Assembly (NCBI GenBank): GCA_030600555.1
Contig: JAUVLW010000002.1
Location: 1,335-65,334 of the forward strand
DNA from: Candidatus Aenigmatarchaeota archaeon
GTDB lineage: Archaea; Aenigmatarchaeota; Aenigmatarchaeia; QMZS01
Direction: 5' to 3'
DNA length: 64,000 nucleotides
The position numbers and the translations under genes were made by a program. Position 1 is the first letter of the stretch; each line of letters begins with the position of its first letter. The notes beneath the pieces were generated by a model that had not been told where the DNA came from, searched no databases, and saw only the letters and a program-made list of their open reading frames with translations. This document shows, one piece after another, positions 15,848 through 52,761 of the stretch.

Positions 15848-15957
15848 GGGAAGGTAGCTCAGGCTGGGAGAGCGCACGGTTGAAGACCGTGATGTCGTGG
15901 GTACTCTTTTCTTGAAATCTTCTGAAAAGACGCCACAATCAAATCCCACTCTTCCCA
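15848..15957 (+). tRNA. tRNA-Phe (anticodon GAA) with a ~36-nt intron inside the T-loop (after T54)
   Basis: Hand fold: acceptor GGGAAGG/TCTTCCC, D-arm GCTC-AGGCTGGGA-GAGC, anticodon arm CACGG-TTGAAGA-CCGTG, T-stem GTGGG/CCCAC. The T-loop T|TCAAAT is interrupted by actcttttcttgaaatcttctgaaaagacgccacaa, which contains the hairpin TCTTTTC/GAAAAGA. Discriminator A, no encoded CCA. Confidence 0.7.
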
Positions 15958-22548: not shown

Positions 22549-23808
22549 ATGCGGTTGTTAAGTAGATTTTTTAAGAAAAAAGAGGAAATATCAACAAAAG
22601 ACCTGAATTTTGATGAAATTGGCAGTTTTGTGGACGAAGAATTTAGAGATAAGAAACAGGAACTTTTGAAGGTATCTGAAAAATTCCGAAAGTCTTTGGT
22701 TAATCAGCTCGATTCACTGGAAGGTCTTTTCAAGAAACTTCTGGATTCTGATTTTGAACCTGTTATTTTACAGGATAAAAGAGATATTTCAAATATTGTT
22801 GAAACCAGTAAAAAGAATTATTGTTCTAATTCAGAAAAATTAATTGTCCGGGTGGTGGATTCCTTAAATGAAAAACCTTCACCTTTTAAAATAAAATCAA
22901 TTGTTTTAGAGACTTTCAACAAATTAAATAATTTTTCAAGAGAAGCTCTTATTCTTTTACACCCTTTTGGGAAAGATATGAAGTGCATAGCTTCTGGGTT
23001 GAAAGAATTTAAGAAAGAAATAGATAATTTTGAATCGTTTCTTAATTCAGATTACAAACTCATTTCTGATGTGGAAGAAGCGGAAAGAATTGTTTATAAA
23101 ATAAATCATCTTGAAGAGAATAAGATTAAATCTGGTAAAAGAAAAGTTGAATTGGATAAAAAGACAACTGAGTTAAAAAAAGAGATGAAAACCCAGAATT
23201 TAAAACTTTCTGAGCTGGTTTCTTCAAAGGAATCAAGAAATCTCGCAAAACTTGAAAAACAACAAAAAGAATTTGAGTTGCAATCAGAGAAACTTATGGC
23301 GGATGCAACGCAATTAGTCTCCAGGGTCAGCAGACAGATTAAAGGATACATTCATAATTGCAAACCCGATAAAGAACAAATAATAAAAATTGAAAATTTT
23401 CTTGATAATCCTGAATTATTGCTCCAAAAATCTAATTTTTTTGTAGATGTGATTGAGAATGTAAAAAAAGACCTTGATAAAATAGAACCAGACGAAAAAA
23501 AAAGAAAGAAATTTTTGAGTATTGAAGAAAACATAAAAGATTTAATAAAAGAAACCCAGATAAAACATAAAGAAATTTCCAATAAACTTATTGAAAATAT
23601 CGCAGCCATAAAAGAATTAAAACCCAGATTAACAACTGAAAAATTTGAGAAGAATCTTAAAAAATTGGATGAAAATATGAATCAATTGGACGAAGAAAAG
23701 AAAAATATTAAATTGGAATCTAGTGGGGATGTAGGAGAATTATTAAATGAACTTGAAAAAGTATTGTCTTCTATTTCAAATAAGGAAATAAGAATTAATA
23801 AAAAGTAG
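22549..23808 (+). CDS. Hypothetical K/E-rich coiled-coil protein
   Basis: 419 aa, strongly heptad-like K/E/L composition. No catalytic motif. Confidence 0.45.
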   Translation: MRLLSRFFKKKEEISTKDLNFDEIGSFVDEEFRDKKQELLKVSEKFRKSLVNQLDSLEGLFKKLLDSDFEPVILQDKRDISNIVETSKKNYCSNSEKLIVRVVDSLNEKPSPFKIKSIVLETFNKLNNFSREALILLHPFGKDMKCIASGLKEFKKEIDNFESFLNSDYKLISDVEEAERIVYKINHLEENKIKSGKRKVELDKKTTELKKEMKTQNLKLSELVSSKESRNLAKLEKQQKEFELQSEKLMADATQLVSRVSRQIKGYIHNCKPDKEQIIKIENFLDNPELLLQKSNFFVDVIENVKKDLDKIEPDEKKRKKFLSIEENIKDLIKETQIKHKEISNKLIENIAAIKELKPRLTTEKFEKNLKKLDENMNQLDEEKKNIKLESSGDVGELLNELEKVLSSISNKEIRINKK

Positions 23809-24092
23809 CCCCGCGCGGATTCGAATACCGCCGAACTTCAAAAAACACTCGTCGTTCCAACAGTGCAAGCGTTTCCTTTGGAAACGATGCATCATTTGCT
23901 TTGCAAATAAATGCCTCATTTTGCTTTGCAAAATGAAAGTTCGATCATTTACCCTATCTTCGATTTCGTCTCAATAGGCTTTCCGCGGTCACAGGATCCA
24001 GGGTCCTATATGCCTAACCCTCTCCTTGTTTCATAAAATGACTTTTTTCGTTCATTCAATCAAAGAAAGCTTGGCCACTACACTACGGGGCT
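23806..24092 (-). tRNA. tRNA-Gln (anticodon CUG) with two non-canonical introns (~57 nt in the D-arm, ~157 nt at T-stem/T-loop junction 53/54)
   Basis: Hand fold on the minus strand: A1-U72 acceptor AGCCCCG/CGGGGCT with discriminator A, the archaeal tRNA-Gln hallmark. D-arm GTGT-AGTGGCCAA-GCAT split by an intron. Anticodon arm TAGGA-CCCTGGA-TCCTG (position 33 is C, which is unusual). Variable TGAC. T-stem CGCGG...CCGCG with the long intron before the TTCGAAT loop. The 3' end overlaps the TAG stop of the upstream CDS. Confidence 0.55.
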
Positions 24093-24120
24093 ATAATTTA
24101 CTTTTGTAATTTACTTTAAT

Positions 24121-24642
24121 ATGGGCTGCGGGATATTGATGGTGGTTGCTCCGAAGAATTTTAGAGATGAGGAATTTATGATACCCAAACAGATTTTTGA
24201 GGGCTCAGGACTTGAGGTTACTGTGGCTTCTAAAGGCGTGAAAAAGGCAACTGGGATGTTTAGCGTAACCACAGAGGTCAATAAAGATATTGTAGAAATT
24301 GATGTGGCTGATTATGATGTTATTGTGTTTGTTGGGGGGAGCGGTTCTTCAATATATTATGAAGACAAAGCTGCTTTGGGATTGGCTAAACAGTTCTATG
24401 AAAATGGCAAAGTTACTGCGGCAATATGCATTGCTCCAGGCATTTTGGCAAAAGCAGGAATTTTAAATGGAAAAAAAGCAACAATTTGGGACTCTGGAGA
24501 TGGGACTTTTATAAAAATACTGGAGGGTGGAGGAGCAAAGTACACAGGAGCAGATGTTGAACAGGAGGGTAAAGTTGTAACGGCAAATGGACCTCAGGCA
24601 GCAAAAGAGTTTGCTGAGAAAATAATTGAACTTTTAGATTGA
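24121..24642 (+). CDS. DJ-1/PfpI family protein (intracellular protease/deglycase-like)
   Basis: 173 aa with the nucleophile-elbow motif AAICIAPGILAKAG. Confidence 0.85.
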   Translation: MGCGILMVVAPKNFRDEEFMIPKQIFEGSGLEVTVASKGVKKATGMFSVTTEVNKDIVEIDVADYDVIVFVGGSGSSIYYEDKAALGLAKQFYENGKVTAAICIAPGILAKAGILNGKKATIWDSGDGTFIKILEGGGAKYTGADVEQEGKVVTANGPQAAKEFAEKIIELLD

Positions 24643-24800
24643 TTTTATATTTTTAATTATTGAATTTTCTGAAGTTTTGCTTTGAGGATATAATTTATAT
24701 TCTCCAGTGTTGTTAAAATTTGGAATCTAACCCACTTCAATTTAAAAATACCACTCAGAAATTTTAATTAATCGAACTTGAAGATTAATATTTAGAATAA

Positions 24801-25148
24801 TTATCCTGCTGGATTAGCCCCTTGAATAAAACCCATTAATTTTTTCTGATTTTCTTCCATTTCTGATTTTAATTTTTCTTCTTTTGTATTGACCTGTTTT
24901 TCTCTTACAACCAACATTTCTTTTTCTTCATCAAGTTCTTCCTGTATTTTGTCTTTATCTGTTTTAACAAGAATCCCCCCAACTTCTTTATATATCTCGG
25001 TTTTGTCTTTGATTTCTTTAAGAGCTTCTTCTATTTCCATCTTTTGCATTCCCTGGTTTTGTTTTTGCATAATAATCTCTTGCAATTCCTGGTTTTGCAT
25101 TTGTACTTTCATCAGTAAATCCTGAGCTTCTTTAGGTAGTTCTGTCAT
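24801..25148 (-). CDS. pfdB: Prefoldin beta subunit
   Basis: 115 aa, two coiled-coil halves around a central beta hairpin, typical PfdB length and composition. Confidence 0.8.
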   Translation of the reverse strand: MTELPKEAQDLLMKVQMQNQELQEIIMQKQNQGMQKMEIEEALKEIKDKTEIYKEVGGILVKTDKDKIQEELDEEKEMLVVREKQVNTKEEKLKSEMEENQKKLMGFIQGANPAG

Positions 25149-25174
25149 ATTTATAATAGGATTTAAATATTATT

Positions 25175-25498
25175 ATGCTTGGACTGGATTTAATTTTTGG
25201 AATTAATAGGCGAGTTAGAGGTTTACGAAGAAAGTGGTGCAGATACAGGCTAAGAGCTTTAAGATTGGAGGGTTCTTCTAAAAGCAGGATTTTAAATCAA
25301 CTGGATAGCGTAGAGCAGGAGTTAAGAACCCTGGAAGGTCAGGATTTAAGGAGACTTGACAGGAATAGAATTGCTGCATCTGTTGAACATGGGTTAAAGA
25401 ATGTATATAATGAATTATCCAGTAAAAAGAGAAAAACAGAGGCAGCGGAAGAAAAAAGAATAAGTGAACTTGAGACTGAATTGAGAGAGTATAAATAA
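25175..25498 (+). CDS. Hypothetical Arg/Glu-rich coiled-coil protein
   Basis: 107-aa ORF. The coding strand is markedly purine-rich relative to its surroundings. No motif recognised. Confidence 0.35.
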   Translation: MLGLDLIFGINRRVRGLRRKWCRYRLRALRLEGSSKSRILNQLDSVEQELRTLEGQDLRRLDRNRIAASVEHGLKNVYNELSSKKRKTEAAEEKRISELETELREYK

Positions 25499-25538
25499 GA
25501 GAATTAATAGAATAATAAAACCAAAATGATAGATATTT

Positions 25539-27638
25539 ATGAGGAAGTGGGTTATTTTATTTTTAGGGTTTTTTTTTGTTCTTGGAATTTTTGCTCAGAT
25601 TGGGTTTTGCGAAGATGGTGGAGAAGATGAATGTGAATCGGATTGTAGTGGTTGTGAGTGTAGTAGTTGCGAAGGTTGTGTTTCTTATGGTTGTGATGAT
25701 GCTTGTGGTGTTGGCAGTCTCACTTCTTCAACTGATAAATTAATTTGGTATCATGCCAATAATCAACAAAACTCATATACTTTCAATTCTAAACAATATT
25801 ATAGTTTAACTAAAACCTTTACAAATAGGAAATATAATTGTGTAAGTTGTGGGTCTTGTGGAGATGGTTGTGGCGGAACTTGTTGCACGGATTATTGTGA
25901 TAAATGCACTTCAAATTTAATAAATTGTAAAAATTGGCAAGAATGTTATGACGATGATAATTCGGGATGTCTGGATGGTTCAACAGGATGTGAATGTGTG
26001 GATGAATATTGCGCTGGTTGGTGTATGGACAATGCTCAGGTATATGATGGATTGGCAAGTTGCACCGCTGCAAGTAATGGGGATTGGGTGATACCATCAT
26101 TTCCAAAACCCCCAGAATATATATTAAATACAAATTATCACTCTGCAAGTATGGGTGGGGGATGTTATTGCAATTATTATGAAATCAAAAATCATCATGA
26201 ATGCGATTCCGTTAATATTAAAGATTCTCATCCATGTCAATCAAGCAATTGCGCCCCGGATTTTATCCAAGGGGGTGATTATTGTTGTCCTTCCGGACAA
26301 TGTGCTCATTTAGGTTTGGATGTTGATATTTTAAATGGATTGCTTAGAAACAACAACCTTGCGGATAGTGTAGATCCTGATTTATATTGTTATTCTAATG
26401 GAGCGGTTATACAGTACCAGGGAGATTCCTTAAAATGCATCAATAGTGTGTGGAATTTTGTTACAGGTGATATTGAGGATTTTACAGATAATTGCGGGAA
26501 AACAATATATAATTTCCCTTTATTTTTTAATAACTATCCTGTATACCCAAATTCGGATAATCCTTTTTCAGGGTACAAGAACACTTACTTAGCGCACCCA
26601 CTTTCATTTCCTGGAAAAACAAAAGATATCATTGCATATATTCTACCAAATAGGGATTTTGTTAAAATACAAATTTCAAAAACCTTTTTTGATTTAGGCA
26701 CAGTTGGTGATGGAGATAATAAACTCATTCAACAATATAAGGATAGCGCCATTGTAAAATTCTCTTTATCAGAAGATATACAGGGAGAAATGTTTGATTA
26801 TTATATTGGTTGTTATACACCAAAAGGTTATGAATGCAATTATCTTTTTGATGAGTGTTGGTCAAATTCTTATTGTTCTCAGGACAATCCTTCAAATACT
26901 GCGAGTGAGGATAACGATGAAAATAAATATTATTGTTGCCCTAAAGGAACCTGCGCTCATAAAGATTCTGGTATTGAAGCAAGTTGTTATGATGAAGGTG
27001 GACACGAATTTAGCATAGATGGGAAAACTTGTTTATGGGAATGTAAGGATGAGATATGGGGTAAGAGAGATGAAGGGGAATTATGTTCCCGTGATTGTGA
27101 TTGCGCTGATTTGGAGAATATAAACAAAGAACTTTTTTGTAAAACCACTTTATATAATAAGAGCGATAAGATATGTTGTCCTGAAGGAAAATGCGGATTA
27201 AAAACCGGAGTATGTGTCGAAGAGAATGGTGTGGCTCAATCCGGCGAGTATAAAAACTGCGTGTGTCAGGGAGGAACTTGGCATTGTAAGAATATTCTTG
27301 TTAAAAATAAGAATTCGAGAATATTATTTTCAGAAGGTCTGAATACTTATAAGACAAGTTTAAAGTTAAATACTTATTTAGATAAACCCGCGCATATAAC
27401 TACAATGGTTTTCTTTGATAAAAAAAATTATAATGGAAACGTAAAAATAACAGGAACCGGTGATTGCGATATAGATAAAACTATTACTCTAGATGAGATA
27501 AATAATATTTTTGAGGAATCTATATCATCCGAAGAATATACATGCGAACTTGAAATAACCGCCCCCGATTTATTAGAAGGCCAGTATTTCTTTTACACAG
27601 GAAGTGCATTGATTTTAGAATATACTGCTTTGATTTAA
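25539..27638 (+). CDS. Large secreted cysteine-rich repeat protein
   Basis: Signal peptide followed by extremely Cys-dense segments (CESDCSGCECSSCEGC...). At least three copies of a CCP-x-G-x-C-(A/G)-(H/L) motif: DYCCPSGQCAHLG, YYCCPKGTCAHKD, ICCPEGKCGLKTG. Confidence 0.6.
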   Translation: MRKWVILFLGFFFVLGIFAQIGFCEDGGEDECESDCSGCECSSCEGCVSYGCDDACGVGSLTSSTDKLIWYHANNQQNSYTFNSKQYYSLTKTFTNRKYNCVSCGSCGDGCGGTCCTDYCDKCTSNLINCKNWQECYDDDNSGCLDGSTGCECVDEYCAGWCMDNAQVYDGLASCTAASNGDWVIPSFPKPPEYILNTNYHSASMGGGCYCNYYEIKNHHECDSVNIKDSHPCQSSNCAPDFIQGGDYCCPSGQCAHLGLDVDILNGLLRNNNLADSVDPDLYCYSNGAVIQYQGDSLKCINSVWNFVTGDIEDFTDNCGKTIYNFPLFFNNYPVYPNSDNPFSGYKNTYLAHPLSFPGKTKDIIAYILPNRDFVKIQISKTFFDLGTVGDGDNKLIQQYKDSAIVKFSLSEDIQGEMFDYYIGCYTPKGYECNYLFDECWSNSYCSQDNPSNTASEDNDENKYYCCPKGTCAHKDSGIEASCYDEGGHEFSIDGKTCLWECKDEIWGKRDEGELCSRDCDCADLENINKELFCKTTLYNKSDKICCPEGKCGLKTGVCVEENGVAQSGEYKNCVCQGGTWHCKNILVKNKNSRILFSEGLNTYKTSLKLNTYLDKPAHITTMVFFDKKNYNGNVKITGTGDCDIDKTITLDEINNIFEESISSEEYTCELEITAPDLLEGQYFFYTGSALILEYTALI

Positions 27639-27697
27639 ATATTTTTTGAATAACTGCAAATTTCCAGACCTTAGATATTTATTTTATACCAGTAAGT

Positions 27698-29455
27698 TTA
27701 TCGCTTTAGTAATTCCAAAACTTCTTCACTGTCAACTCTTTTTCCATATTTTTTCATAATTTCCCCCATCGCCTTTTTCCCATATTTTTTTGTATAATTT
27801 CCAATAATTTTCTTCAATTCAACTCCTGAAATTTTCTCAAATCCTTTAATAGTTTTATTGGTTAAAACATTTTCTATTGCTTTTTTTACAATTTTTCCTT
27901 TTTCCAGATTTTTAAGAACAAATTCCAAATCTTTTTTTACAATTTTAATATTTTTTCTTTCAAGAGATTTCTTTTTATTTAGAATTAAATCGGCAATTAT
28001 TTTAGGTTCAACTTTATATTTTAAAAGTTCTTCAAATAAACCTAACTCTTTGTTTTTTGAAATTTGTTCCGCTAAATCTTTGCTTAAACCTAATTTTAAA
28101 AATCTTGCTGATTTTTCTTCAAGAGATTCTGGTAATTTTATCTTATTTAGATATTTGTTAAGGTCTATTTTTGGAAGGTCTGTTTCAGGGTACATTCTTG
28201 CGGCTCCGGGCAATTCACGGGCGTATCTTGTGAGAATATCTTCCGCAAATCTGGTTTCTTCAGGAATCCCTTTACCAAGAGATAAAATTCTTTTTTTAAT
28301 TAATTCCAAAGCATTCCTGCAGTTTTCCCCTGTTATCAGCAAAAACAAATCTTTTTCTTTTGCGCAAATTTCTTTTTTTAAATGATTAATTTCTTTTGAA
28401 TCAAACTGATATTTTTTAAGGTCTTCATCTGAATGGATAATTCCTCCAATCCCGAAAACTTTTGCATAATTTGCGATTTCTTTTCCCAGAGTTATTTCAC
28501 CACAGGGATTTTTAAATAATCCTGAAAGATTTTCTATTTTCAAACATAATATTTTTTCCTTATCTTTTAGAATTTTGCATTTTGATGATTTAAATAAATC
28601 TGTCACTTCTTTTTCAGTTAATTTTATTGGTTTATTTTTTAATTTTTCTTTTATTGAAATTAAATCCAGTTGTCTTTTAACTTCATTTTCTATTAATTTG
28701 TCAAGTTTTTTTAATTCCTGAAATCCTTTAATTTCTATTCTGGAACCTCCTTTTATTGAGATATTTACATCCTGTCTTATTGTTCCGATGCCTCTTTGCA
28801 CTTTTAGGCTTCTGAGCAACAATCCAATTTTTGATGCAAATTCTTTTGCCTGTTCAGGATGCCAGATGTCAGGGTGACAACTAAGTTCAATTAATGGAAT
28901 CCCTAACCGGTCAAGCCTGTAATAAATCATCTTTTCTTTTTCTTTAATTTTTGTTGCGCTTTCTTCTTCAAGATTTAGATCCTGGATATGGACTTTCCCA
29001 AAACTGGTTTCAATATAAGAATTCTCATTCCCTTTTCCAACCAAAGAAGTTCTTTGATAACCTGTGGTGTTGCTCCCGTCAATAACAACTTTTCTCATTA
29101 TCTGCAGTGAGTCGGGAACACACATTTTTAATATTTTGGCTAATTGCAAACTAATTAAAAGAGCCTCTTCGTTTAATTCATTTGGAAATTTTGAGTCTGT
29201 TTCAACAGAGCAGCAGTTTGGATAAGAATAATATGTAAATTCTTTATCTTTTAAGAATTCCTGCATTGCGGCTTTGTCAACTTCACCTGTTTCACTCGCC
29301 GTTGGTCTTAATTTTCTTGAGAATTCAAAAACCGGGTTTTCGTCTTCTGAAATTTCTGTTGAACAGTTGCAGAATAGTTTTGTTTTTGTTGCCAGTCTCT
29401 GATGTATTTCTATACCAATTTTTAAACCTATTTTTTTATAGTCAATCATAATCAA
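27698..29455 (-). CDS. gatE: Glutamyl-tRNA(Gln) amidotransferase subunit E (GatE; GatB/GatE family)
   Basis: N-terminal GIEIHQRL...KLFCNC motif of GatB/E. The 585-aa length and an internal insertion favour GatE. C-terminal YqeY-like tail. No gatD in the window. Confidence 0.65.
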   Translation of the reverse strand: MIMIDYKKIGLKIGIEIHQRLATKTKLFCNCSTEISEDENPVFEFSRKLRPTASETGEVDKAAMQEFLKDKEFTYYSYPNCCSVETDSKFPNELNEEALLISLQLAKILKMCVPDSLQIMRKVVIDGSNTTGYQRTSLVGKGNENSYIETSFGKVHIQDLNLEEESATKIKEKEKMIYYRLDRLGIPLIELSCHPDIWHPEQAKEFASKIGLLLRSLKVQRGIGTIRQDVNISIKGGSRIEIKGFQELKKLDKLIENEVKRQLDLISIKEKLKNKPIKLTEKEVTDLFKSSKCKILKDKEKILCLKIENLSGLFKNPCGEITLGKEIANYAKVFGIGGIIHSDEDLKKYQFDSKEINHLKKEICAKEKDLFLLITGENCRNALELIKKRILSLGKGIPEETRFAEDILTRYARELPGAARMYPETDLPKIDLNKYLNKIKLPESLEEKSARFLKLGLSKDLAEQISKNKELGLFEELLKYKVEPKIIADLILNKKKSLERKNIKIVKKDLEFVLKNLEKGKIVKKAIENVLTNKTIKGFEKISGVELKKIIGNYTKKYGKKAMGEIMKKYGKRVDSEEVLELLKR

Positions 29456-29515
29456 ACCACTAAAAATATAATTAATTCATAAATAAAAAATATCCTAAAA
29501 TAAAAAATAAAAGGG

Positions 29516-30358
29516 TTATGTTAATTTTGGATGTACCACTATTTTTGTTTCAGCAGAAGTTACATAGGTGTAGCTTGTTGTTACTTCTATAGGAAGTTTT
29601 ACTTCATCACCAGCAGGTATTGTTACTTGCACTGTGCACGAACCTTCTCTACCGCCTTTCATTCTTATGTTGCTGCATGTTTGAGTACTACTACCAGCCG
29701 TAATTGTAGCGCTATCAATTAGATAATGTTGGTTTTCATACCTCACATTGCCGCCTCCAACATTTCTGAAAATTAATGTGATTGGAACTGTGCTTCCTGT
29801 TTTTAACACATTTTGCACCCTCACGTCAACATGGATTGGAGCGTTGCTGTTTTTTAGACTTTTTACCATAGGTATGTCTTGATTTGCTTCCATTTTTTTA
29901 ACATATTCGTTTTCAGAGAAAGCATAAACTGTTGCTATGGTATTTGTGGTGTAATCATAGTTAATATGCACTCCAACATCATAAGTCTGCGTTTCTGTTA
30001 CTTCCGGAGCTGTTGTGTCATCAGTTACTTTACATTCTTGTCCGTCTTTATTCATTTCTGCGTTTGGAGGTTTTAGTCCGGTGGTGCATGCGTTTTGAGA
30101 ATTGCTTGTCCCCCAACTTAACAAATATATGGTGCTTCCTATGTTGCTTGCTTCTGCTCCTCCAACATTTCTAAGTCTGGTTTCAAGGGTTATGGCCTGA
30201 CCAGATACCGGGTATTCCACATCAGGTCCAAAATATTCTATATATACTCCATTTGTTCCTGCTGCCATTGATGAGTCTCCGCCGGTTTCTGTACAACCGC
30301 TCATTGCTATTACTAAACCCATTAAAAAAACTACTGAAATTTTGTTATAGATTCCCAT
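29516..30358 (-). CDS. Hypothetical secreted/lipobox-like surface protein
   Basis: N-terminal hydrophobic segment ending AMSGC (lipobox-like), then a T/S/G-rich beta-type ectodomain. Confidence 0.5.
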   Translation of the reverse strand: MGIYNKISVVFLMGLVIAMSGCTETGGDSSMAAGTNGVYIEYFGPDVEYPVSGQAITLETRLRNVGGAEASNIGSTIYLLSWGTSNSQNACTTGLKPPNAEMNKDGQECKVTDDTTAPEVTETQTYDVGVHINYDYTTNTIATVYAFSENEYVKKMEANQDIPMVKSLKNSNAPIHVDVRVQNVLKTGSTVPITLIFRNVGGGNVRYENQHYLIDSATITAGSSTQTCSNIRMKGGREGSCTVQVTIPAGDEVKLPIEVTTSYTYVTSAETKIVVHPKLT

Positions 30359-30457
30359 ATTTTTATTTGTATTATTTTATATATATCAATAAATTAACTT
30401 TAATTGATTATTTTGAATCAAAATTTATCCTAAACTAAAAATTTATAATTTAATTAT

Positions 30458-30667
30458 GCTGGGGTGGCCGAGTGGCTAAAGACTTTCTTTCTCAAAAGAA
30501 AGTCCTTAACGTCAAAGAAAGGAAAATTTGTCGCTTCGCGACATATATCCAAAAGACGTTAAATTCCACAATAAGGCGCTAGCCTGCTAAGCTAGTTTCT
30601 GTAATGGATCCCTGGGAAATCTTTTCTTTAACAGAAAGGTTCAGGTATTCGAATCCCAGCCCCAGCG
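30458..30667 (+). tRNA. tRNA-Ser (anticodon GCU) with two non-canonical introns (~92 nt in D-loop/D-stem, ~31 nt at T-arm position 53/54)
   Basis: Hand fold: acceptor GCTGGGG/CCCCAGC with discriminator G. Type-II D-arm GCC-GAGTGGCTAAA-GGC split by an intron. Anticodon arm CTAGC-CTGCTAA-GCTAG. 16-nt variable arm. T-stem CTGGG/CCCAG with an intron before TTCGAAT. Both introns contain strong hairpins. Confidence 0.6.
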
Positions 30668-30693
30668 TTTATATTATACTTATTGTATTTATT

Positions 30694-31341
30694 ATGTTGT
30701 ATCTGATAAATTTCAAGACTTATGAAGAAGGTTTGGGAGATAAAGGCATAAAGCTGGCAAATTTGATTGCGGAAGTTGGAAAAAAATTAAATGCGGAAAT
30801 ATGGGCGGCCCCTCAGTTCACAGATTTAAAAGAAATTTCAAAGATAGCCTCAACGTTGTCGCAGCATATTGACCCTGTTTCATTTGGTTCTCACACAGGT
30901 TCTGTTTTACCGGCTTCAGTTAAAGACGCTGGTGTGATAGGCACTTTAATTAATCATTCTGAGAGGAGATTACCTTTGGATAAAATAGAAGGAATTATAA
31001 ATGCTTCAAAGTTATCTGGCATAAAGACTGTTTGTTGTGCTGCTGATTTAAAAGAAGTGATGGAGATTGCAAAATTTTCGCCTGATTATATTGCTTATGA
31101 AGACCCTGAATTAATCGGTTCCGGCAGGTCAATAGCTCAGGAAAAACCCGAAGCAATTTCTGAGTTTGTGGGAGTTCTAAAAGATTTAAATCCAGGGATT
31201 ATTCCTTTATGCGGGGCAGGAATCGCAACCAAGCAGGATGTGCAGATTGCAAAAGATTTGGGCACGAAAGGAGTGTTGGTTGCTTCCGCGATTGTTAAGG
31301 CCGAAGACCAGAGGGAAGCTTTATTGAACTTGGTTTTGTAA
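30694..31341 (+). CDS. tpiA: Triosephosphate isomerase (archaeal short type)
   Basis: MLYLINFKTYEEG start and the GTLINHSERR active-site motif of archaeal TIM. Track start 30604 would overlap tRNA-Ser, so the ATG at 30694 is preferred. Confidence 0.85.
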   Translation: MLYLINFKTYEEGLGDKGIKLANLIAEVGKKLNAEIWAAPQFTDLKEISKIASTLSQHIDPVSFGSHTGSVLPASVKDAGVIGTLINHSERRLPLDKIEGIINASKLSGIKTVCCAADLKEVMEIAKFSPDYIAYEDPELIGSGRSIAQEKPEAISEFVGVLKDLNPGIIPLCGAGIATKQDVQIAKDLGTKGVLVASAIVKAEDQREALLNLVL

Positions 31342-31503
31342 TAACAATTTATTTTAATTTTCTTTGGAATAAGTTCATTAATTTAATTAATCTTTCCTGA
31401 GGTTTTATATTGATTGGCTATATTATTTATTGGATGTTATGTGCAATATTCCTCGCCAACAATTTTTAGAAATATTTAAATAGTTTCATTAATTTAATCT
31501 ATA

Positions 31504-31659
31504 ATGATGAAAACAAATAAAGCAATAAAAGAAATAAAAGTGCTTGGTATTGTAATGTCACTTTTAGGTGTAGTTTTAATATTTATAGGTATAAGTTCAT
31601 TACCAAGATTATCTGATTGGATTATTTCTTTTAATCTACGGATTAATACACATATTTAA
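31504..31659 (+). CDS. Possible small membrane protein (51 aa)
   Basis: Hand-found ORF MMKTNKAIKEIKVLGIVMSLLGVVLIFIGISS... with one TM. Weak evidence only. Confidence 0.2.
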   Translation: MMKTNKAIKEIKVLGIVMSLLGVVLIFIGISSLPRLSDWIISFNLRINTHI

Positions 31660-31773
31660 ATTAGAAAGATTCAAATAAAAATTGTTGGCTGCGTCATACT
31701 GTCGCTCCGTTTCACTTCGCGATTTTTTCTTGCAGAAAAAACACATAACAGCGATTAAGAGGAAAATTCTTAT

Positions 31774-32814
31774 TTATTTCCGGTTGTAAATATTCAAACA
31801 AGGGAATGCTATTTCTATCTTATTTTTCCTGAATTCTTTTGTTAATGCTTTTATAAATTCATGTTTCATTTTATATTGGCTGACAAATTCTTTTACCCTT
31901 AGGATTATTGAAAATTCTATGTTTGAATCCCCAAAATTCTTGAATCTCATAAGAGGTTCATAATCTTCAACACCGCCATCCACAGATTTTAATGTTTTTT
32001 TGGCAACAGCTATTGTTATTTTCTCAACTTTTTCAAGGTCCGAATCATAACCAACACCACAATTAACCGAAAATGATAATTCTTCGGTTGGGTCGGAATA
32101 ATTGGTAACAATCATTTCTGATAATTTGGCGTTTGGGATAATAACAAGATTGTTTGGAAGGGTTCTTATTTGTGTTGATCTCCACCCGATTTTTTCAACA
32201 TGACCTTTTAGACCCCCATTTTCAAGTTCAATATAATCTCCAATTTTAATTGACCTGTCTGAAGAAATATATAAACCCGCAAAATAATTGGCCAGCGTGC
32301 TTTGAAGGGCAAGAGCAACAGCCAAACCCGCAACACCTAAACTGGCTATTAGAGGCGTTATTTCAACCTTAAAATAGTTTAAGATGATGAAAAGACCCAT
32401 TAGGTAAATGAAAATGTTAATTAATCCTTTTAAACTAAGGAAAACCGTTTTTTGGGCTCTTGAGGTTTTATCTTTGGTTGTATGGTGCATCACGAAGGTA
32501 TCCACAATTTTTATTAAAGTCCAGGTTCCAAGACCAACACCAGCAATTACAAATAAGGTTTCTATCGGGGCTTTGTAAATTGTAAGAATTTTTAGGGTTT
32601 CTGTTGCATAATAACCACCAATTAATAGAATGCCTATATAAATTGGTTTGTGGCAGGTTTCCAGTAATTCATCATCCAGAGTAGTTTTTGTTTTTGCGGT
32701 TATTTTTGCCACATATTGTTTAAGCGTAAAATAGAATATTTTTGCGCAAATAACTGAACCAATTATAATTAAAATAGCATATAAATAATCCTGCGGAATT
32801 ATATTTTCAAACAT
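31774..32814 (-). CDS. Mechanosensitive ion channel, MscS family
   Basis: Three N-terminal TMs plus the conserved MscS beta-domain (IKIGDYIELENGGLKGHVEKIGWRSTQIRT). Confidence 0.85.
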   Translation of the reverse strand: MFENIIPQDYLYAILIIIGSVICAKIFYFTLKQYVAKITAKTKTTLDDELLETCHKPIYIGILLIGGYYATETLKILTIYKAPIETLFVIAGVGLGTWTLIKIVDTFVMHHTTKDKTSRAQKTVFLSLKGLINIFIYLMGLFIILNYFKVEITPLIASLGVAGLAVALALQSTLANYFAGLYISSDRSIKIGDYIELENGGLKGHVEKIGWRSTQIRTLPNNLVIIPNAKLSEMIVTNYSDPTEELSFSVNCGVGYDSDLEKVEKITIAVAKKTLKSVDGGVEDYEPLMRFKNFGDSNIEFSIILRVKEFVSQYKMKHEFIKALTKEFRKNKIEIAFPCLNIYNRK

Positions 32815-32882
32815 AATTACTTATAAATTATACATAAAAAAGTAATAATTGCTTTGTTTATTTTTTTAGGAAGATTAATTAT

Positions 32883-33111
32883 AGCCCCGTAGTCTAGCGG
32901 CCCATCTTTTTTCGATAGATTGTCATATGAAGCGAGGAAAGGGTCAAGGATTCTGGCCTTTGGAGTTCAAAGGAAAGAGCAAATATTAATTTGCGATGAT
33001 TGAAGTTAGCCAGCGACCGCGGTTCGAAGCAACACTTTTCAAGATAATTGTTGAAAAAGGTCTGCACCCCAAAACATAAATTAGGGTAGAACGAGAATCC
33101 GCGCGGGGCTA
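32883..33111 (+). tRNA. tRNA-Gln (anticodon UUG) with three introns (D-loop ~42 nt; canonical 37/38 ~44 nt; T-loop ~65 nt)
   Basis: Hand fold: acceptor AGCCCCG/CGGGGCT, same as the CUG isoacceptor. D-arm GTCT...GGAT interrupted. Anticodon arm CTGGC-CTTTGG|intron|A-GCCAG. Variable CGAC. T-arm CGCGG-TTCGA|intron|AT-CCGCG. Confidence 0.55.
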
Positions 33112-33147
33112 TGATTAAATAGAAATAAATATGAATTTACTAAATTT

Positions 33148-33720
33148 ATGAACCAAATAGAAAAAGCCGCAGAGGTTTTAAAGTTGGGTGGAATAATCGC
33201 ATATCCAACCGAAACAGTTTACGGGCTTGGAGTGAATATTTTTGATGAGACTGCAATAAGAAGATTATTTGAGATAAAGCGCAGGTCTCTAAACAAACCA
33301 ATTTCTGTTGCTGTGGCAAATTTTAAAATGTTGAATGATATTGCATGCGTTTTTGAGAAGGACAAAGAGCTTCTGGAGAAATTATTGCCCGGACCTGTGA
33401 CAATAATTTTTCCCAGAAAAGAAGTTGTTTCTGATTTGCTCGCCGCAGGAAGAGATTTAATAGGGATAAGATTTCCTGAAAATGAAACAACAAGAGAAAT
33501 AATAGAAAAAGCCGGATTTCCAATAACAGCAACCTCAGCGAACTTTTCAGGTGAGGGGGATGTTACTGAAGCTGAATATGTGAAACCGGAAGTTGATTTT
33601 GTTGTTAACGGAGACTGTAAATATAAGAGACCCTCTACAGTCGTTGATTTGAGCAACAGGAGAATTTTGAGAGAAGGTGTTAATTTGGAGAGGGTTAAAC
33701 AGGTGTTAAAATTAAGCTGA
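33148..33720 (+). CDS. tsaC: L-threonylcarbamoyladenylate synthase (TsaC/YrdC-type, short form)
   Basis: YPTETVYGLG motif and 190-aa length. Confidence 0.85.
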   Translation: MNQIEKAAEVLKLGGIIAYPTETVYGLGVNIFDETAIRRLFEIKRRSLNKPISVAVANFKMLNDIACVFEKDKELLEKLLPGPVTIIFPRKEVVSDLLAAGRDLIGIRFPENETTREIIEKAGFPITATSANFSGEGDVTEAEYVKPEVDFVVNGDCKYKRPSTVVDLSNRRILREGVNLERVKQVLKLS

Positions 33721-33751
33721 CTGGATATTAAACATAAAAACAAGATAGAAT

Positions 33752-34393
33752 ATGGTGGATTGGAAGGTTCCTATTACAATATTAATTTTGGTGTTGATTA
33801 TTTCTTTAGGAGTATTCCCTTTCTTTTCGTCAGATTTTGCAAGTTCTTTAACTGATGTGCTTTCTCCGGTTAATGAGCTTTTTAACAATTTATTTAACAG
33901 GAATCAGGAGTTTCAGGAAAACATATTATTGTCTTTTTCAACAAGGGAGTTGAATGATTTGCAGGTGGGCGTCCCATCAGACATAAATATGAAATTTTAC
34001 GGGGCTTATAAATTAAAAGTGGATGACAAAGATTTGACTGTTGATGGTGAATTATTGTTAAAGAACTTCACAGGTTCTATTTCATTTACTAATTCTCTAA
34101 TTTCAGGTTCTATAACCGGATTGTCTTCAGGAACTTTCAAACTTGATGGAAATTCAAGAGTGCAGTTATATGATATGAATATTGATGAATTAAGAGTATC
34201 TCATTTGAAGATTGGGGAGTTAACTGTAAATGAAGGCGAGATGACTGTAACTTATCCGCAGAACCTTGAGGTTAAACTGGATTTAGGAACCAAGATTTAT
34301 GGTTTCCAGGGGGATATGGTATATGGCAGCAATATGATGACTTTTAGCGGGAAATGTTCAAAGGTTCACATGGATTCTTTTAATTTGGGTTAA
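33752..34393 (+). CDS. Hypothetical secreted/membrane-anchored protein
   Basis: N-terminal TM followed by a beta-rich T/S/G domain. Confidence 0.4.
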   Translation: MVDWKVPITILILVLIISLGVFPFFSSDFASSLTDVLSPVNELFNNLFNRNQEFQENILLSFSTRELNDLQVGVPSDINMKFYGAYKLKVDDKDLTVDGELLLKNFTGSISFTNSLISGSITGLSSGTFKLDGNSRVQLYDMNIDELRVSHLKIGELTVNEGEMTVTYPQNLEVKLDLGTKIYGFQGDMVYGSNMMTFSGKCSKVHMDSFNLG

Positions 34394-34397
34394 GTTT

Positions 34398-34772
34398 TTA
34401 AATCCTGCATATTTTAAACTCAACATTTCCATTGTAAATAACCTCTCTTATCTGTTCCTCTTTTTTTGTAAGCTTGCTTTTTCCGGATTTTACTTCAACA
34501 AATACAATTTTTTTCACATTACTATCTGCGGCGCCGTCAAATATAACAAAATCAATTGGAGACCCGAGAAATCTCGCATCTGTTGGATTAAAATTAAAAT
34601 CCGGAAGGAACGGAGCCAGCTGTTCTTTAAATTTGCCCTCCAGAACCAACCTACTTTTTTCAATTGCATCTTTTCTGATGGCTTTGATATCTTTTCTTCT
34701 TGAAATTAAGAGATAAATCAGGAGAATAATTATCAGAGAAAGAACGAAGATAATAATATAGAGAATTGTCAT
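34398..34772 (-). CDS. Membrane-anchored PD-(D/E)xK nuclease-like protein (Hjc/Mrr-cat-like core)
   Basis: N-terminal TM (ILYIIIFVLSLIIILLIYLLI) followed by IDFVIFDG (Asp) ... VFVEVKSGKSK (E-x-K), the canonical PD-(D/E)xK restriction-endonuclease-like arrangement. Confidence 0.45.
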   Translation of the reverse strand: MTILYIIIFVLSLIIILLIYLLISRRKDIKAIRKDAIEKSRLVLEGKFKEQLAPFLPDFNFNPTDARFLGSPIDFVIFDGAADSNVKKIVFVEVKSGKSKLTKKEEQIREVIYNGNVEFKICRI

Positions 34773-34781
34773 AAATTAGTT

Positions 34782-34922
34782 ATGATTAAAGAAAGTATTT
34801 GTCAGCTATGCGGAAAACCCGGGATAATGAATTCCTGCAATCTTTGCGGAAGACTGGTTTGTTCAGAATGTTATGATGCTGAAAAAGGTTTGTGCAAAAT
34901 CTGCGCTGCAAAGTTTAAATAA
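34782..34922 (+). CDS. Small zinc-ribbon protein (4 x Cys pairs), 46 aa
   Basis: Hand-found ORF MIKESICQLCGKPGIMNSCNLCGRLVCSECYDAEKGLCKICAAKFK, below the ORF-track size cutoff. CxxC-x8-CxxC-x4-CxxC-x7-CxxC. Confidence 0.4.
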   Translation: MIKESICQLCGKPGIMNSCNLCGRLVCSECYDAEKGLCKICAAKFK

Positions 34923-34936
34923 TTTTAAACCCTTTT

Positions 34937-35761: not shown

Positions 35762-35762
35762 A

Positions 35763-52656: not shown

Positions 52657-52761
52657 TGCATCGATCGGGATTCGATTACAGCACTATTCCGGCAAACCAG
52701 AACAAATGTACCCGAATTGTTGGCTTGGAAGGCCAATGTCCTACCGTTAGACTATCGATGC
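52657..52761 (-). tRNA. tRNA-Gly (anticodon UCC) with a ~34-nt intron in the T-loop (after T54)
   Basis: Hand fold of the minus strand: acceptor GCATCGA/TCGATGC with discriminator A, D-arm GTCT-AACGGTA-GGAC, anticodon arm TTGGC-CTTCCAA-GCCAA, T-stem TCGGG/CCCGA. The loop T|TCGAAT is interrupted by ACATTTGTTCTGGTTTGCCGGAATAGTGCTGTAA. Same intron position as in tRNA-Phe. Confidence 0.65.

What the first reader, a model, noticed from the sequence alone, without database searches (positions are those of the whole stretch)
23806..24092. tRNA-Gln(CUG) with an unusually long (~157 nt) T-arm intron plus a D-arm intron, overlapping the upstream stop codon
The exons reassemble into a canonical archaeal tRNA-Gln: A1-U72, discriminator A, D-arm GTGT/GCAT, T-arm CGCGG-TTCGAAT-CCGCG. 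The insert between T-stem position 53 and T54 is about 157 nt, well above typical archaeal tRNA introns. It is highly structured, with two copies of TTTGCAAAGCAAA hairpins and a perfect CGTTTCC-AAA-GGAAACG hairpin. Such a long intron could host an embedded small RNA, as with the C/D-box sRNA in some tRNA-Trp introns, though I could not find clean C or D boxes. The anticodon loop reads CCCUGGA, with C instead of the near-universal U33. The tRNA 3' end overlaps the TAG stop of CDS 22549-23808.
Basis: seen in the sequence. Interest (0 to 1): 0.7.

Follow-up and report, generated by a model that had tools for sequence, protein, structure and literature searches.

The report
Intron-split glutamine tRNA gene
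This is a real glutamine tRNA gene of a tiny uncultured archaeon (Aenigmarchaeota) in which two introns fill three quarters of the gene; it looks exotic but is typical of its lineage, whose tRNA introns are long, numerous and fast-changing.

Summary
On the minus strand, 24092..23806, three exons (22, 31 and 20 nt) splice to a 73-nt tRNA-Gln(CUG). The introns are 57 nt (D-loop/D-stem junction) and 157 nt (T arm, 53/54). Standard finders miss the unspliced gene.

It is a functional-looking gene, not a relic. Four other lineages carry it at the same syntenic site with near-invariant exons, compensatory anticodon-stem changes and very different introns. Both introns have a 4-bp helix flanked by 3-nt bulges that places the cuts exactly where a canonical tRNA results. 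No shorter alternative exists.

The embedded-small-RNA idea is not supported. There is no Rfam hit, no D box and no ACA. The middle 94 nt are absent from the homologous 63-nt intron in a genome about 85% identical.

157 nt exceeds the published 11-129 nt range but not this clade: 132-138 nt in orthologues, about 241 nt in another Aenigmarchaeote.

Extras:
- The orthologues carry their T-arm intron at 59/60, not 53/54.
- A ~57-nt two-hairpin module recurs in four intron contexts and both orientations, which suggests DNA-level movement.
- C33 recurs in DPANN tRNA-Gln genes.
- All five tRNA genes found in the window have T-arm introns.

Verdict: a new member of a known kind.

The parts
24093..24120 (-). 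28-bp A/T-rich spacer between the tRNA 5' end and the ATG of the divergent DJ-1/PfpI gene (24121-24642). It is the putative shared TATA-type promoter (ATTAAAGTAAATTACAAAAGTAAATTAT).
   Evidence: The spacer is nearly invariant in five lineages whose introns are unalignable. That it is a promoter is inferred, not shown. All five tRNA genes found in the window are preceded by TTAT.
24071..24092 (-). Exon 1: positions 1-21 (acceptor 5' strand, U8, A9, D stem 5' strand, D loop), AGCCCCGTAGTGTAGTGGCCAA.
   Evidence: Identical in all five lineages.
24014..24070 (-). Intron 1, 57 nt, at the D-loop/D-stem junction (between A21 and G22 by my numbering). Its motif is hBH: H = GGCC/GGUU, bulges AA|G and AG|G, inner helix h of 9 bp (CUUUCUUUG/CAAGGAGAG).
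   Evidence: Across 9 orthologue and paralogue sequences, 90.6% of cells pair, against 41-63% when partners are slid. The same position is used in the UUG paralogue.
23983..24013 (-). Exon 2: positions 22-53 (D stem 3' strand, anticodon arm UAGGA-CCCUGGA-UCCUG with C33 and anticodon CUG, 4-nt variable loop, T stem 5' strand CGCGG).
   Evidence: Orthologues show compensatory anticodon-stem changes: CGAGA/UCUCG in L007, U-A instead of U-G at 27:43 in L003 and L009.
23826..23982 (-). Intron 2, 157 nt, between G53 and U54. Its motif is a relaxed BHB: H = CCGC(48-51)/GCGG, bulges GG|A and UA|U, exon-side helix h' of 3 bp, and no helix directly opposite the 5' bulge.
   Evidence: unique solution. 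The minimum-free-energy fold forms the ACCGC/GCGGU helix unprompted. A homologous 63-nt intron sits at the same position in L014 tRNA-Gln(UUG), with GUGG in place of GCGG.
23936..23982 (-). 5' part of the conserved two-hairpin module: hairpin A (GCCUAUU...GAUAGGG), linker UAAAUGAU, and the 5' arm of hairpin B (CGAACUU).
   Evidence: Alignments A2 and A3. nhmmer E = 1.3e-12. Pair 6:29 of hairpin A is C-G in the window, U-A in L014 and A-U in L133.
23842..23935 (-). 94-nt lineage-specific insertion in the loop of hairpin B. It holds four small hairpins: hp1 23936-23916, hp2 23914-23889 (a near-duplicate of hp1), hp3 23886-23870 (CGUUUCC-AAA-GGAAACG) and hp4 23866-23845.
   Evidence: Fold. Absent from the L014 homologue. 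The hp1 motif resembles hairpins in the L003 59/60 intron (0 of 500 shuffles) and in the L133 His intron (2 of 500).
23826..23841 (-). 3' arm of hairpin B (AAGUUCG), followed directly by H' (GCGG) and the bulge nucleotides UA of the 3' splice site.
   Evidence: The closing pair of hairpin B is C-G in the window and U-A in L014, a compensatory change.
23806..23825 (-). Exon 3: positions 54-73 (T loop UUCGAAU, T stem 3' strand, acceptor 3' strand, discriminator A73). No CCA is encoded. The last three bases are the reverse complement of the TAG stop of ORF 22549-23808.
   Evidence: The overlap is conserved in orthologues.
23800..23805 (-). C followed by a run of five T just after the tRNA 3' end: the likely oligo-T terminator. 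It lies inside the last Lys codons of the convergent ORF.
   Evidence: TTTTTT in orthologues. Function is inferred from the known use of oligo-T terminators by archaeal RNA polymerase.

Best explanation
This is the working tRNA-Gln(CUG) gene of an Aenigmarchaeota (DPANN) archaeon.

Inferred pathway:
- A 287-nt precursor is transcribed from the A/T-rich spacer shared with the divergent DJ-1/PfpI gene. It ends in the oligo-T run that overlaps the end of the convergent ORF.
- The archaeal tRNA splicing endonuclease cuts at two bulge-helix-bulge-type motifs. One is at the D-loop/D-stem junction and removes 57 nt. The other is between positions 53 and 54 of the T arm and removes 157 nt.
- An RtcB-type ligase joins the three exons, and CCA is added afterwards.

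The long intron most likely has no sequence-specific job of its own. It is a ~63-nt two-hairpin intron, as in the relative L014, that has been inflated by a 94-nt insertion of small AAA-loop hairpins, two of them tandem duplicates. The only selected properties appear to be that it folds on itself and presents the splice-site helix.

C33 is a tolerated, recurrent variant of tRNA-Gln in DPANN archaea, not a sign of decay.

Shown: the exon-intron anatomy, the conservation pattern, the splice-site helices and the homology of the intron.
Inferred: transcription, cleavage, ligation, and the lack of intron function.
For: The spliced product is a canonical 73-nt tRNA-Gln(ctg).

Orthology and conservation:
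- The gene sits between the same 419-aa ORF and the DJ-1 gene in four other lineages: L001/2, L003-6, L007/8 and L009.
- Exons 1 and 3 are identical across them. The anticodon stem shows compensatory changes. The introns differ in length and sequence: D intron 37-67 nt, T intron 63-138 nt.

Splice sites:
- Both introns have a perfect 4-bp central helix with 3-nt bulges. Cutting after the second bulge nucleotide gives exactly the canonical D and T arms.
- 53/54 is the only excision that does so.
- The 53/54 intron is homologous to the one in L014 tRNA-Gln(UUG). Helices are preserved through changes: GCGG to GUGG, C-G to U-A in hairpin B, C-G to U-A in hairpin A.
- The D-intron helices pair in 90.6% of cells, against 41-63% for slid controls.

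Context:
- A second 53/54 intron with the same ends (AAA... and ...GUUC-H'-UA) is in the window's tRNA-Ser(GCU).
- All five tRNA genes found in the window have T-arm introns.
- The locus is reproduced 100% in an independent assembly.
- Positions 53/54 and 59/60 are known intron sites (PMC4090602).
- DPANN endonucleases carrying the L3 loop are linked to more tRNA gene disruption (PMC5829648).

Against an intron function: no Rfam family, no C/D or H/ACA boxes, and the 94-nt core is absent in L014.

C33 occurs in 10 of 107 parsed distinct tRNA-Gln genes, in several unrelated DPANN lineages. It toggles with U33 on the neighbour-protein tree.
Against: - There is no expression or splicing data.
- The T-intron motif is relaxed. 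Its exon-side helix has only 3 bp, and no helix lies opposite the 5' bulge, where a 38-nt hairpin-containing stretch sits instead.
- A naive motif scan of this AT-rich precursor gives 281 chance candidates, so the motif alone proves little.
- Covariation in the D-intron helices is weak: one pair with double changes, not above shuffles.
- C33 violates a near-universal rule for elongator tRNAs (PMC5041475).
- Neither the endonuclease type of this genome nor a possible second tRNA-Gln(CUG) gene outside the window could be checked.
Confidence: 0.82

Rival explanations
1. The core of the T-arm intron is a miniature mobile DNA module of about 57 nt, made of two hairpins. It moves or recombines between tRNA introns in either orientation. 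On this view the introns of this lineage are created, replaced and enlarged by such modules. This complements the best explanation rather than excluding it.
For: The same module (87% mean column identity across the three sequences first aligned: window, L014 and L133) occurs in four contexts:
- sense, in tRNA-Gln(CUG) 53/54 (window);
- sense, in tRNA-Gln(UUG) 53/54 (L014);
- antisense, in the 59/60 intron of tRNA-Gln(CUG) in L009;
- antisense, in the 37/38 intron of a tRNA-His(GUG) in L133.
The nhmmer E-values are 1e-12, 5e-17, 3e-7 and 3e-10.

Only the few nucleotides next to the 3' splice site differ with the host tRNA.

Orthologous genes in genomes about 85% identical carry introns at different positions:
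- Gln-UUG: 59/60 versus 53/54.
- Ser-GCU: D intron plus 53/54 versus 54/55 only.

DNA-level intron transposition is already proposed for Thermoproteales (Fujishima 2010, as summarised in PMC4090602).
Against: - Only four contexts were found. There is no copy outside tRNA introns and no second copy in the 64-kb window.
- No terminal repeats, target-site duplication or transposase were identified.
- Exchange between the two Gln paralogues by gene conversion explains part of the pattern.
- Short AT-rich hairpins can converge.
Confidence: 0.35
2. The 53/54 intron arose from the ancestral 59/60 intron by inversion of the DNA block [U54-A59 plus intron]. The T-loop hexamer TTCGAA is a palindrome and the T-stem arms are inverted repeats. 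Such an inversion would put TTCGAA back on the other side of the intron and flip the module.
For: - The intron position differs by exactly the six palindromic nucleotides.
- The module is antisense in the 59/60 intron of L009 and sense in the 53/54 introns of the window and L014. In both arrangements hairpin B is the end nearest TTCGAA.
- 59/60 is the widespread, probably ancestral position in DPANN tRNA-Gln genes.
Against: - An inversion alone yields loop AUUCGAA and no GCGG helix partner. Extra steps are needed: one inserted T and about 7 new nucleotides.
- The non-module part of the L009 intron has no counterpart in the window or L014.
- The His 37/38 copy shows the module can be antisense without any T-loop inversion.
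- tRNA-Ser has a 53/54 intron without the module.
Confidence: 0.12
3. The long intron encodes a functional small RNA released by splicing, for example a box C/D guide as in archaeal tRNA-Trp, or a new stable circular RNA.
For: - The length and strong predicted structure: z = -4.2, four to six hairpins.
- Archaeal spliced introns are known to circularise.
- One heptamer, AUGAUGC, is one mismatch from a C box.
Against: - No Rfam family matches: best E = 2.8, on the wrong strand.
- There is no CUGA and no ACA.
- The 94-nt core is absent from the homologous L014 intron, and orthologues carry unrelated sequences.
- The conserved module occurs in both orientations relative to transcription, which argues against an RNA-level sequence function.
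Confidence: 0.06
4. The locus is a decaying, non-expressed relic. C33 and the oversized, relaxed T-arm intron would be symptoms, and CAG would be read by tRNA-Gln(UUG) or by another copy.
For: - C33 is exceptional for elongator tRNAs.
- The T-intron motif is relaxed.
- The genome is AT-rich (32.8% GC), so CAG codons may be few.
- The rest of the genome is unseen.
Against: - All stems are intact.
- Exons, the promoter spacer and the terminator are conserved across lineages that are only 71-77% identical in the neighbouring protein, while the introns diverge freely.
- C33 is kept in three of five lineages and in unrelated DPANN genomes, including intronless genes.
- The splice helices are kept through compensatory changes.
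Confidence: 0.05

Closest known systems
Multi-intron tRNA genes of Thermoproteales (Pyrobaculum, Thermofilum, Caldivirga) with BHB introns at non-canonical positions (Sugahara 2007/2008; reviewed in PMC4090602)
   Same: Two or three protein-spliced introns per gene. Positions 53/54 and 59/60 and the D arm are used. Motifs are the relaxed hBH/HBh' type. The genes are invisible to standard tRNA finders.
   Different: The host is a DPANN archaeon, not a crenarchaeote. The introns are far longer: 57 and 157 nt against a median of 12-25 nt and a published maximum of 129 nt. All five tRNA genes found here have a T-arm intron, 9 introns in total, against 0.84 introns per gene in Thermoproteales (PMC8450103). 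This is a small sample.
Disrupted tRNA genes of other DPANN archaea (Nanoarchaeum equitans split tRNAs; ARMAN-2/Micrarchaeota with the epsilon2 endonuclease; PMC3239211, PMC5829648, PMC12397907)
   Same: The same superphylum. The introns are relaxed BHB-like motifs, which need a broad-specificity endonuclease. The literature already notes that tRNA sets of DPANN MAGs are incomplete because disrupted genes go undetected.
   Different: I found no description of Aenigmarchaeota tRNA introns. The gene here is cis-spliced, not split. The endonuclease type of this genome is unknown.
tRNA-Trp intron carrying a box C/D guide RNA (Haloferax and other Euryarchaeota)
   Same: A long, structured intron in an archaeal tRNA gene.
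   Different: That intron is at 37/38 and has C, D', C' and D boxes and guide sequences. This one has none of these and is not conserved.
[quoted passage not shown] 2010, as summarised in PMC4090602)
   Same: Closely similar intron sequences in different tRNA genes and at different positions. The gain is thought to proceed at the DNA level.
   Different: Here the shared unit is an internal two-hairpin module found in both orientations relative to the tRNA. I did not find that reported for BHB introns in the papers I read.
C33 in elongator tRNAs: Sulfolobales tRNA-Cys(GCA) (PMC7668247); C33 in eukaryotic initiator tRNAs (PMC5041475)
   Same: C replaces the U-turn nucleotide U33 in an otherwise normal tRNA.
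   Different: The isoacceptor and the clade differ. Here C33 recurs in tRNA-Gln (both CUG and UUG) in several DPANN lineages and alternates with U33 among close relatives.

Membership tests
tRNA-Gln (archaeal type) | Cloverleaf with 7-bp acceptor stem, D, anticodon and T arms, a 7-nt anticodon loop and a YUG anticodon | tested here: met
   ARAGORN calls the spliced 73-mer tRNA-Gln(ctg).
tRNA-Gln (archaeal type) | A1-U72 first pair and A73 discriminator, as in other archaeal tRNA-Gln genes | tested here: met
   Read from the sequence. The same 5' end occurs in 117 distinct archaeal tRNA-Gln genes retrieved with the exon-1 pattern.
tRNA-Gln (archaeal type) | U33 (near-universal in elongator tRNAs) | tested here: not met
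   The loop is CCCUGGA. C33 is shared with L003, L009, L040, L081, L100 and L113 (CUG) and with L028, L031, L070 and L109 (UUG).
Archaeal endonuclease-spliced (BHB) tRNA intron | Central 4-bp helix flanked by two 3-nt bulges, with both cuts after the second bulge nucleotide | tested here: met
   D intron: GGCC/GGUU, AA|G and AG|G. T intron: CCGC/GCGG, GG|A and UA|U.
Archaeal endonuclease-spliced (BHB) tRNA intron | Strict hBHBh' form: outer helices of at least 2 bp adjoining both bulges | tested here: not met
   D intron: h is 9 bp, but the exon-side helix is not adjacent. T intron: h' is 3 bp and there is no h opposite the 5' bulge. Both are relaxed forms (hBH, HBh'), which the literature accepts as substrates of broad-specificity enzymes.
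Archaeal endonuclease-spliced (BHB) tRNA intron | Excision restores a canonical mature tRNA, and no better excision exists | tested here: met
   Of 11 cloverleaf-compatible excisions in the T region, only 53/54 has 4 of 4 helix pairs and a UUCGAAU loop.
Archaeal endonuclease-spliced (BHB) tRNA intron | Cleavage by EndA and ligation by RtcB shown in vivo or in vitro; a broad-specificity EndA encoded in the genome | not testable with these tools
   There is no transcript data, and the rest of the genome is not in the window.
Intron-encoded box C/D sRNA (tRNA-Trp type) | C box RUGAUGA and D box CUGA (plus C'/D') framing roughly 12-nt guides | tested here: not met
   No CUGA in either intron and one 6/7 C-box-like heptamer. 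The only C/D family hit (SNORD108, E = 2.8) is on the opposite strand and far below threshold.
Transposed or mobile archaeal tRNA introns (Fujishima 2010 type) | Highly similar intron sequence in non-orthologous tRNA genes or at different positions | tested here: met
   The module occurs in Gln 53/54, Gln 59/60 and His 37/38.
Transposed or mobile archaeal tRNA introns (Fujishima 2010 type) | An identifiable mobility mechanism or hallmarks (target duplication, terminal repeats, an associated enzyme) | tested here: inconclusive
   None was recognised in the four copies. The sample is too small.

The most novel reading that the evidence does not exclude
Aenigmarchaeota tRNA introns are built and rebuilt by a miniature, orientation-independent two-hairpin DNA module.
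- The module hops between introns of different tRNA genes: Gln 53/54, Gln 59/60 and His 37/38.
- This would drive the fastest intron turnover yet seen in tRNA genes, with different intron positions in orthologues of genomes about 85% identical.
- It would also inflate introns beyond the known size range.
- The palindromic T-loop (TTCGAA) may let an inversion shift an intron from 59/60 to 53/54.
- Alongside, C33 is a tolerated or selected state of tRNA-Gln across DPANN.
Probability: 0.3. Interest if true: 0.6.

Novelty: new member of a known kind. Interest (0 to 1): 0.4.

Why it matters
Practical: genes like this are invisible to ARAGORN and to the Rfam tRNA model. All five tRNA genes found in this window carry T-arm introns, and three of the five were found only by hand. 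DPANN genomes will therefore be scored as lacking tRNAs (here both Gln isoacceptors and a Ser) unless intron-aware, clade-trained models are used. That affects completeness estimates and claims of host dependence.

Biological: the locus extends the size range of endonuclease-spliced tRNA introns. It adds Aenigmarchaeota to the intron-rich archaea. Through its relatives, it also gives a compact comparative system for how such introns are gained, moved and enlarged: two paralogues, several orthologues, three intron positions and one shared module in both orientations. The recurrent C33 offers a natural test of how strictly the U-turn nucleotide is needed.

Tried and rejected
- Detection tools. 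ARAGORN with and without intron mode finds nothing correct on the raw window; the one -i call, 'tRNA-Ile' with a 552-nt intron, is spurious. Rfam at gathering and at E-value thresholds does not see the locus.
- Exact-protein look-up of the DJ-1 neighbour: not on record.
- 'Intron sliding with relics of the 59/60 intron'. I first read ATCGAAC... and GGAACGACGAG inside the 157-nt intron as relics. A Smith-Waterman shuffle test shows the TGGAACGA match is not significant (76 of 500). Only the hp1 hairpin motif is significant, at 0 of 500 against L003. L014 then showed that the 53/54 intron is a family of its own. The relic claim is dropped.
- A swap of T-introns between the two inverted Gln paralogues by a 9-kb inversion. 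The window and L134 are collinear throughout, so there is no such difference between them.
- A generic scan for BHB motifs in the precursor gives 281 candidates in this AT-rich sequence, so it is not discriminating.
- The pattern scan of viral contigs for the module found nothing. Three of the five metagenome hits (L130-L132) match only about 24 nt in non-tRNA context and are taken as chance.
- More distant homologues of the 419-aa neighbour (L010, L011) have no tRNA-Gln next to them.
- The B56_G9 contig ends about 460 nt short of where its CUG gene should be, so the closest relative's copy could not be read.
- Weak CRISPR-repeat Rfam hits at about 37.1-37.4 kb: there is no repeat array.
Full report
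**What is at the locus**

Read on the minus strand, 24092..23806 is a 287-nt stretch. Three segments make the gene:
- AGCCCCGTAGTGTAGTGGCCAA (24092-24071)
- GCATATAGGACCCTGGATCCTGTGACCGCGG (24013-23983)
- TTCGAATCCGCGCGGGGCTA (23825-23806)

Joined, they give a 73-nt sequence that ARAGORN calls tRNA-Gln(ctg). It has A1-U72, A73, a D stem GUGU/GCAU and a T arm CGCGG-UUCGAAU-CCGCG. The two intervening pieces are 57 nt (24070-24014) and 157 nt (23982-23826), so three quarters of the gene is intron.

The raw gene is invisible to ARAGORN and to Rfam's tRNA model at any threshold. The last three bases are the reverse complement of the TAG of the convergent ORF 22549-23808. No CCA is encoded. An independent Logan assembly reproduces 2408 nt around the locus without a single difference.

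These include the C33 loop CCCUGGA, the CGUUUCC-AAA-GGAAACG hairpin (unique in the window) and the two UUUGCAAAGCAAA copies 25 nt apart. The intron folds far better than shuffles (z = -4.2), as does the whole precursor (z = -3.7).

**Whose genome**

The window has 32.8% GC. The neighbouring 419-aa protein has homologues only in MAGs labelled Candidatus Aenigmarchaeota or Aenigmatarchaeota. An 11.7-kb contig of isolate B56_G9 (L134/L014) is collinear with window 24550-36154 at 84-88% nucleotide identity. The host is therefore an Aenigmarchaeota (DPANN) archaeon.

**Is the gene alive?**

The same gene lies between the same two neighbours in four further lineages: L001/2, L003-6, L007/8 and L009. 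Their neighbour proteins are 71-77% identical to the window's. The neighbours are the 419-aa ORF, with the same stop-codon overlap, and a divergent DJ-1/PfpI gene.
- Exons 1 and 3 and the 28-bp promoter spacer are almost invariant.
- The anticodon stem shows compensatory change: UAGGA/UCCUA, UAGGA/UCCUG, CGAGA/UCUCG.
- The introns differ widely in length and sequence: D intron 37-67 nt, T intron 63-157 nt.

That is the signature of a tRNA under purifying selection with freely evolving introns. It is not the signature of a relic.

**Splice sites**

I used the standard geometry: a 4-bp helix H between two 3-nt bulges, cut after the second bulge nucleotide (my own knowledge of the BHB rule; motif as described in PMC4090602).
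- D intron: H = GGCC/GGUU, bulges AA|G and AG|G, and a 9-bp inner helix.
- T intron: H = CCGC/GCGG, bulges GG|A and UA|U, and a 3-bp exon-side helix.

In both cases the predicted cuts give exactly the canonical mature arms. A brute-force search of every single excision in the T region found 11 that leave a cloverleaf-compatible arm. All are 157 nt. Only 53/54 combines four helix pairs with a UUCGAAU loop.

Both motifs are relaxed (hBH and HBh'), not strict hBHBh'. A naive motif scan of this AT-rich RNA gives hundreds of chance candidates. The motif is therefore supporting evidence, not proof. Comparative support:
- The D-intron helices pair in 90.6% of cells over nine sequences, against 41-63% for slid partners. 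True covariation is weak.
- The T-intron helices are preserved through changes in a homologous intron, described next.

**The 157-nt intron dissected**

The exon-1 pattern scan of GTDB genomes returned 118 loci holding tRNA-Gln genes. One is L014, the UUG gene of B56_G9. Its T arm carries a 63-nt intron at 53/54: AAAGCUUAUCGAGCCAAAGGCGAAGAUAAGGUAAAUAAUUGAACUUUUUGAAGUUCAGUGGAG.

This aligns end to end with the outer parts of the window's intron. The layout is hairpin A, a linker, hairpin B, then the H partner and the bulge. Helices are kept by substitutions:
- C-G to U-A in hairpin A.
- C-G to U-A at the base of hairpin B.
- GCGG to GUGG in H.

The window's extra 94 nt (23842-23935) sit in the loop of hairpin B. 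They consist of four small hairpins, the first two near-duplicates. The great length is thus a lineage-specific insertion plus an internal duplication.

Nothing suggests an embedded RNA:
- Rfam gives only E = 2.8 and 5.6 hits, on the other strand.
- There is no CUGA, no ACA and one 6/7 C-box-like heptamer.
- There is no ORF.

**How unusual is the length?**

A 2014 review gives 11-129 nt for archaeal tRNA introns, with medians of 12-25 nt. So 157 nt is beyond the published range. Within this clade it is not exceptional:
- Orthologous T introns are 138 nt (L003) and 132 nt (L007, L012).
- Another Aenigmarchaeote (L058) has a 408-nt tRNA-Gln gene with a T-arm insert of about 241 nt.
- A Pacearchaeote (L090) has a 37/38 intron of about 165 nt by eye.

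**Intron position differs between orthologues**

In all four orthologous CUG genes, and in the window's own UUG paralogue, the T-arm intron is at 59/60. There H = UUCG/YGAR and the T stem acts as the outer helix. The same position is used in tRNA-Gln genes of Woesearchaeota, Micrarchaeota and others, so it is probably ancestral.

The window's CUG gene and L014's UUG gene instead have the 53/54 intron. I first took parts of the 157-nt intron for relics of the 59/60 intron. A shuffle test shows only the hp1 hairpin motif is significantly shared, so I dropped that claim. The swap is not explained by an inversion between the two inverted paralogues, because the genomes are collinear.

**A shared module in both orientations**

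A profile of the two-hairpin module finds it in the 59/60 intron of L009's CUG gene, on the antisense strand (E = 3e-7). The one metagenome scan found it, again antisense, in the 114-nt 37/38 intron of a tRNA-His(GUG) gene (L133). ARAGORN confirms that spliced product.

The module therefore occurs in four contexts, three positions and both orientations. Only the nucleotides next to the 3' splice site are host-specific. This argues against an RNA-level sequence function. It argues for DNA-level exchange or mobility, akin to the intron transposition proposed for Thermoproteales.

TTCGAA (positions 54-59) is a palindrome and the T-stem arms are inverted repeats. An inversion of [54-59 plus intron] would move an intron from 59/60 to 53/54 and flip the module, which matches L009 against the window. 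It needs further steps, however, and the His copy shows that inversion is not required. I rate it as speculative.

**Context in the window**

All five tRNA genes I could find carry T-arm introns:
- Gln(CUG): 53/54.
- Ser(GCU), 30458-30667: a 31-nt 53/54 intron with the same ends, plus a D-loop intron of about 92 nt. It was found by a custom scan and confirmed by ARAGORN after splicing.
- Gly(UCC) and Phe(GAA): 54/55.
- Gln(UUG): three introns, at the D loop, 37/38 and 59/60.

That is 9 introns in 5 genes.

The Ser orthologues in L134 and L001 have no D intron and a 54/55 intron instead. Intron content therefore turns over between genomes about 85% identical.

**C33**

U33 is regarded as near-universal in elongator tRNAs. 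Known exceptions are eukaryotic initiators, a Candida tRNA-Ser with G33 and Sulfolobales tRNA-Cys.

Here C33 is shared by the window, L003-6 and L009, while L001 and L007 have U33. On a neighbour-protein tree the two states are interleaved (a single-gene neighbour-joining tree, so weak). Among 107 parsed distinct tRNA-Gln genes, 10 have C33. Six are CUG and four are UUG. They have different anticodon stems, come from different DPANN groups, and include an intronless gene. One further partial gene also has it. C33 is thus a recurrent, tolerated state of DPANN tRNA-Gln, not a lesion of this locus.

**Verdict**

This is a genuine, probably functional tRNA-Gln(CUG) gene with two endonuclease-type introns at positions already known from other archaea, in a phylum where they had not been described. 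The small-RNA hypothesis is not supported.

The finding is a new member of a known kind. It has three moderately interesting by-products: a record-range intron length that is typical of the clade, an orientation-independent intron module with rapid intron turnover, and recurrent C33. None of the processing steps has been observed; they are inferred from sequence and comparison.

Noticed in passing
window 30458-30667 (+): Hidden tRNA-Ser(GCU), 210 nt, missed by ARAGORN and Rfam. It has a D-loop intron of about 92 nt and a 31-nt intron at 53/54 (CCUG GG|A ... CAGG UA|U). The spliced 87-mer is called tRNA-Ser(gct). Orthologues in L134 and L001 are 121 nt, with no D intron and the T intron at 54/55.
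   Followed up: yes
window 32883-33111 (+): The tRNA-Gln(UUG) paralogue has three introns: D loop 43 nt, 37/38 44 nt and 59/60 69 nt. In L001 the T introns of the CUG and UUG genes differ by one base, which suggests gene conversion between the paralogues.
   Followed up: partly
window 52657-52761 (-) and 15848-15957 (+): tRNA-Gly(UCC) and tRNA-Phe(GAA) each carry one intron at 54/55, of about 34-35 nt. The Phe motif is clean (GUGG/CCAC, GU|A, AA|U). I could not draw a clean one for Gly.
   Followed up: partly
window, immediately 5' of each of the five tRNA genes (e.g. 24093-24096, 32879-32882, 30454-30457): Every tRNA 5' end is directly preceded by TTAT, with an A/T-rich box about 20-28 nt upstream. 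The fixed spacing may mean very short or absent 5' leaders, as in Nanoarchaeum. This was not examined.
   Followed up: no
window 27698-29455 (-): A 585-aa GatB/GatE-family protein (PF02934, E = 4e-52), probably the GatE subunit that makes Gln-tRNA(Gln). It lies between the two tRNA-Gln genes, and this arrangement is syntenic in relatives.
   Followed up: no
L133 4190-4439 (+) (metagenome contig Ga0164318_10000195): tRNA-His(GUG) with an encoded G-1, a 64-nt D-loop intron and a 114-nt 37/38 intron. The 37/38 intron contains the Gln-intron module in antisense orientation, with a 48-nt insertion in the loop of hairpin A.
   Followed up: yes
L028, L031, L070, L109 (UUG); L040, L081, L100, L113 (CUG): C33 occurs in tRNA-Gln genes of several unrelated DPANN MAGs, including an intronless 73-nt gene (L113). 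About 9% of the distinct genes parsed have it.
   Followed up: partly
L058 (Aenigmatarchaeota NC_groundwater_576), gene of 408 nt; L090 (Pacearchaeota): Even longer tRNA-Gln introns occur elsewhere: a T-arm insert of about 241 nt in L058, where the exact splice register is ambiguous, and a 37/38 intron of about 165 nt in L090.
   Followed up: partly
L038-L129, Thermoplasmata MAGs: About 25 Thermoplasmata tRNA-Gln(CUG) genes have an identical length of 107 nt, with an intact anticodon arm and an insert of about 34 nt 3' of it. This looks like a conserved non-canonical intron in that class. It was not analysed.
   Followed up: no
L134 end / QMZS01000008.1 end (equivalent to window ~24550): The closest relative's contig breaks about 460 nt before the expected tRNA-Gln(CUG) gene. 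The hairpin-rich intron may be what hampers assembly there.
   Followed up: no
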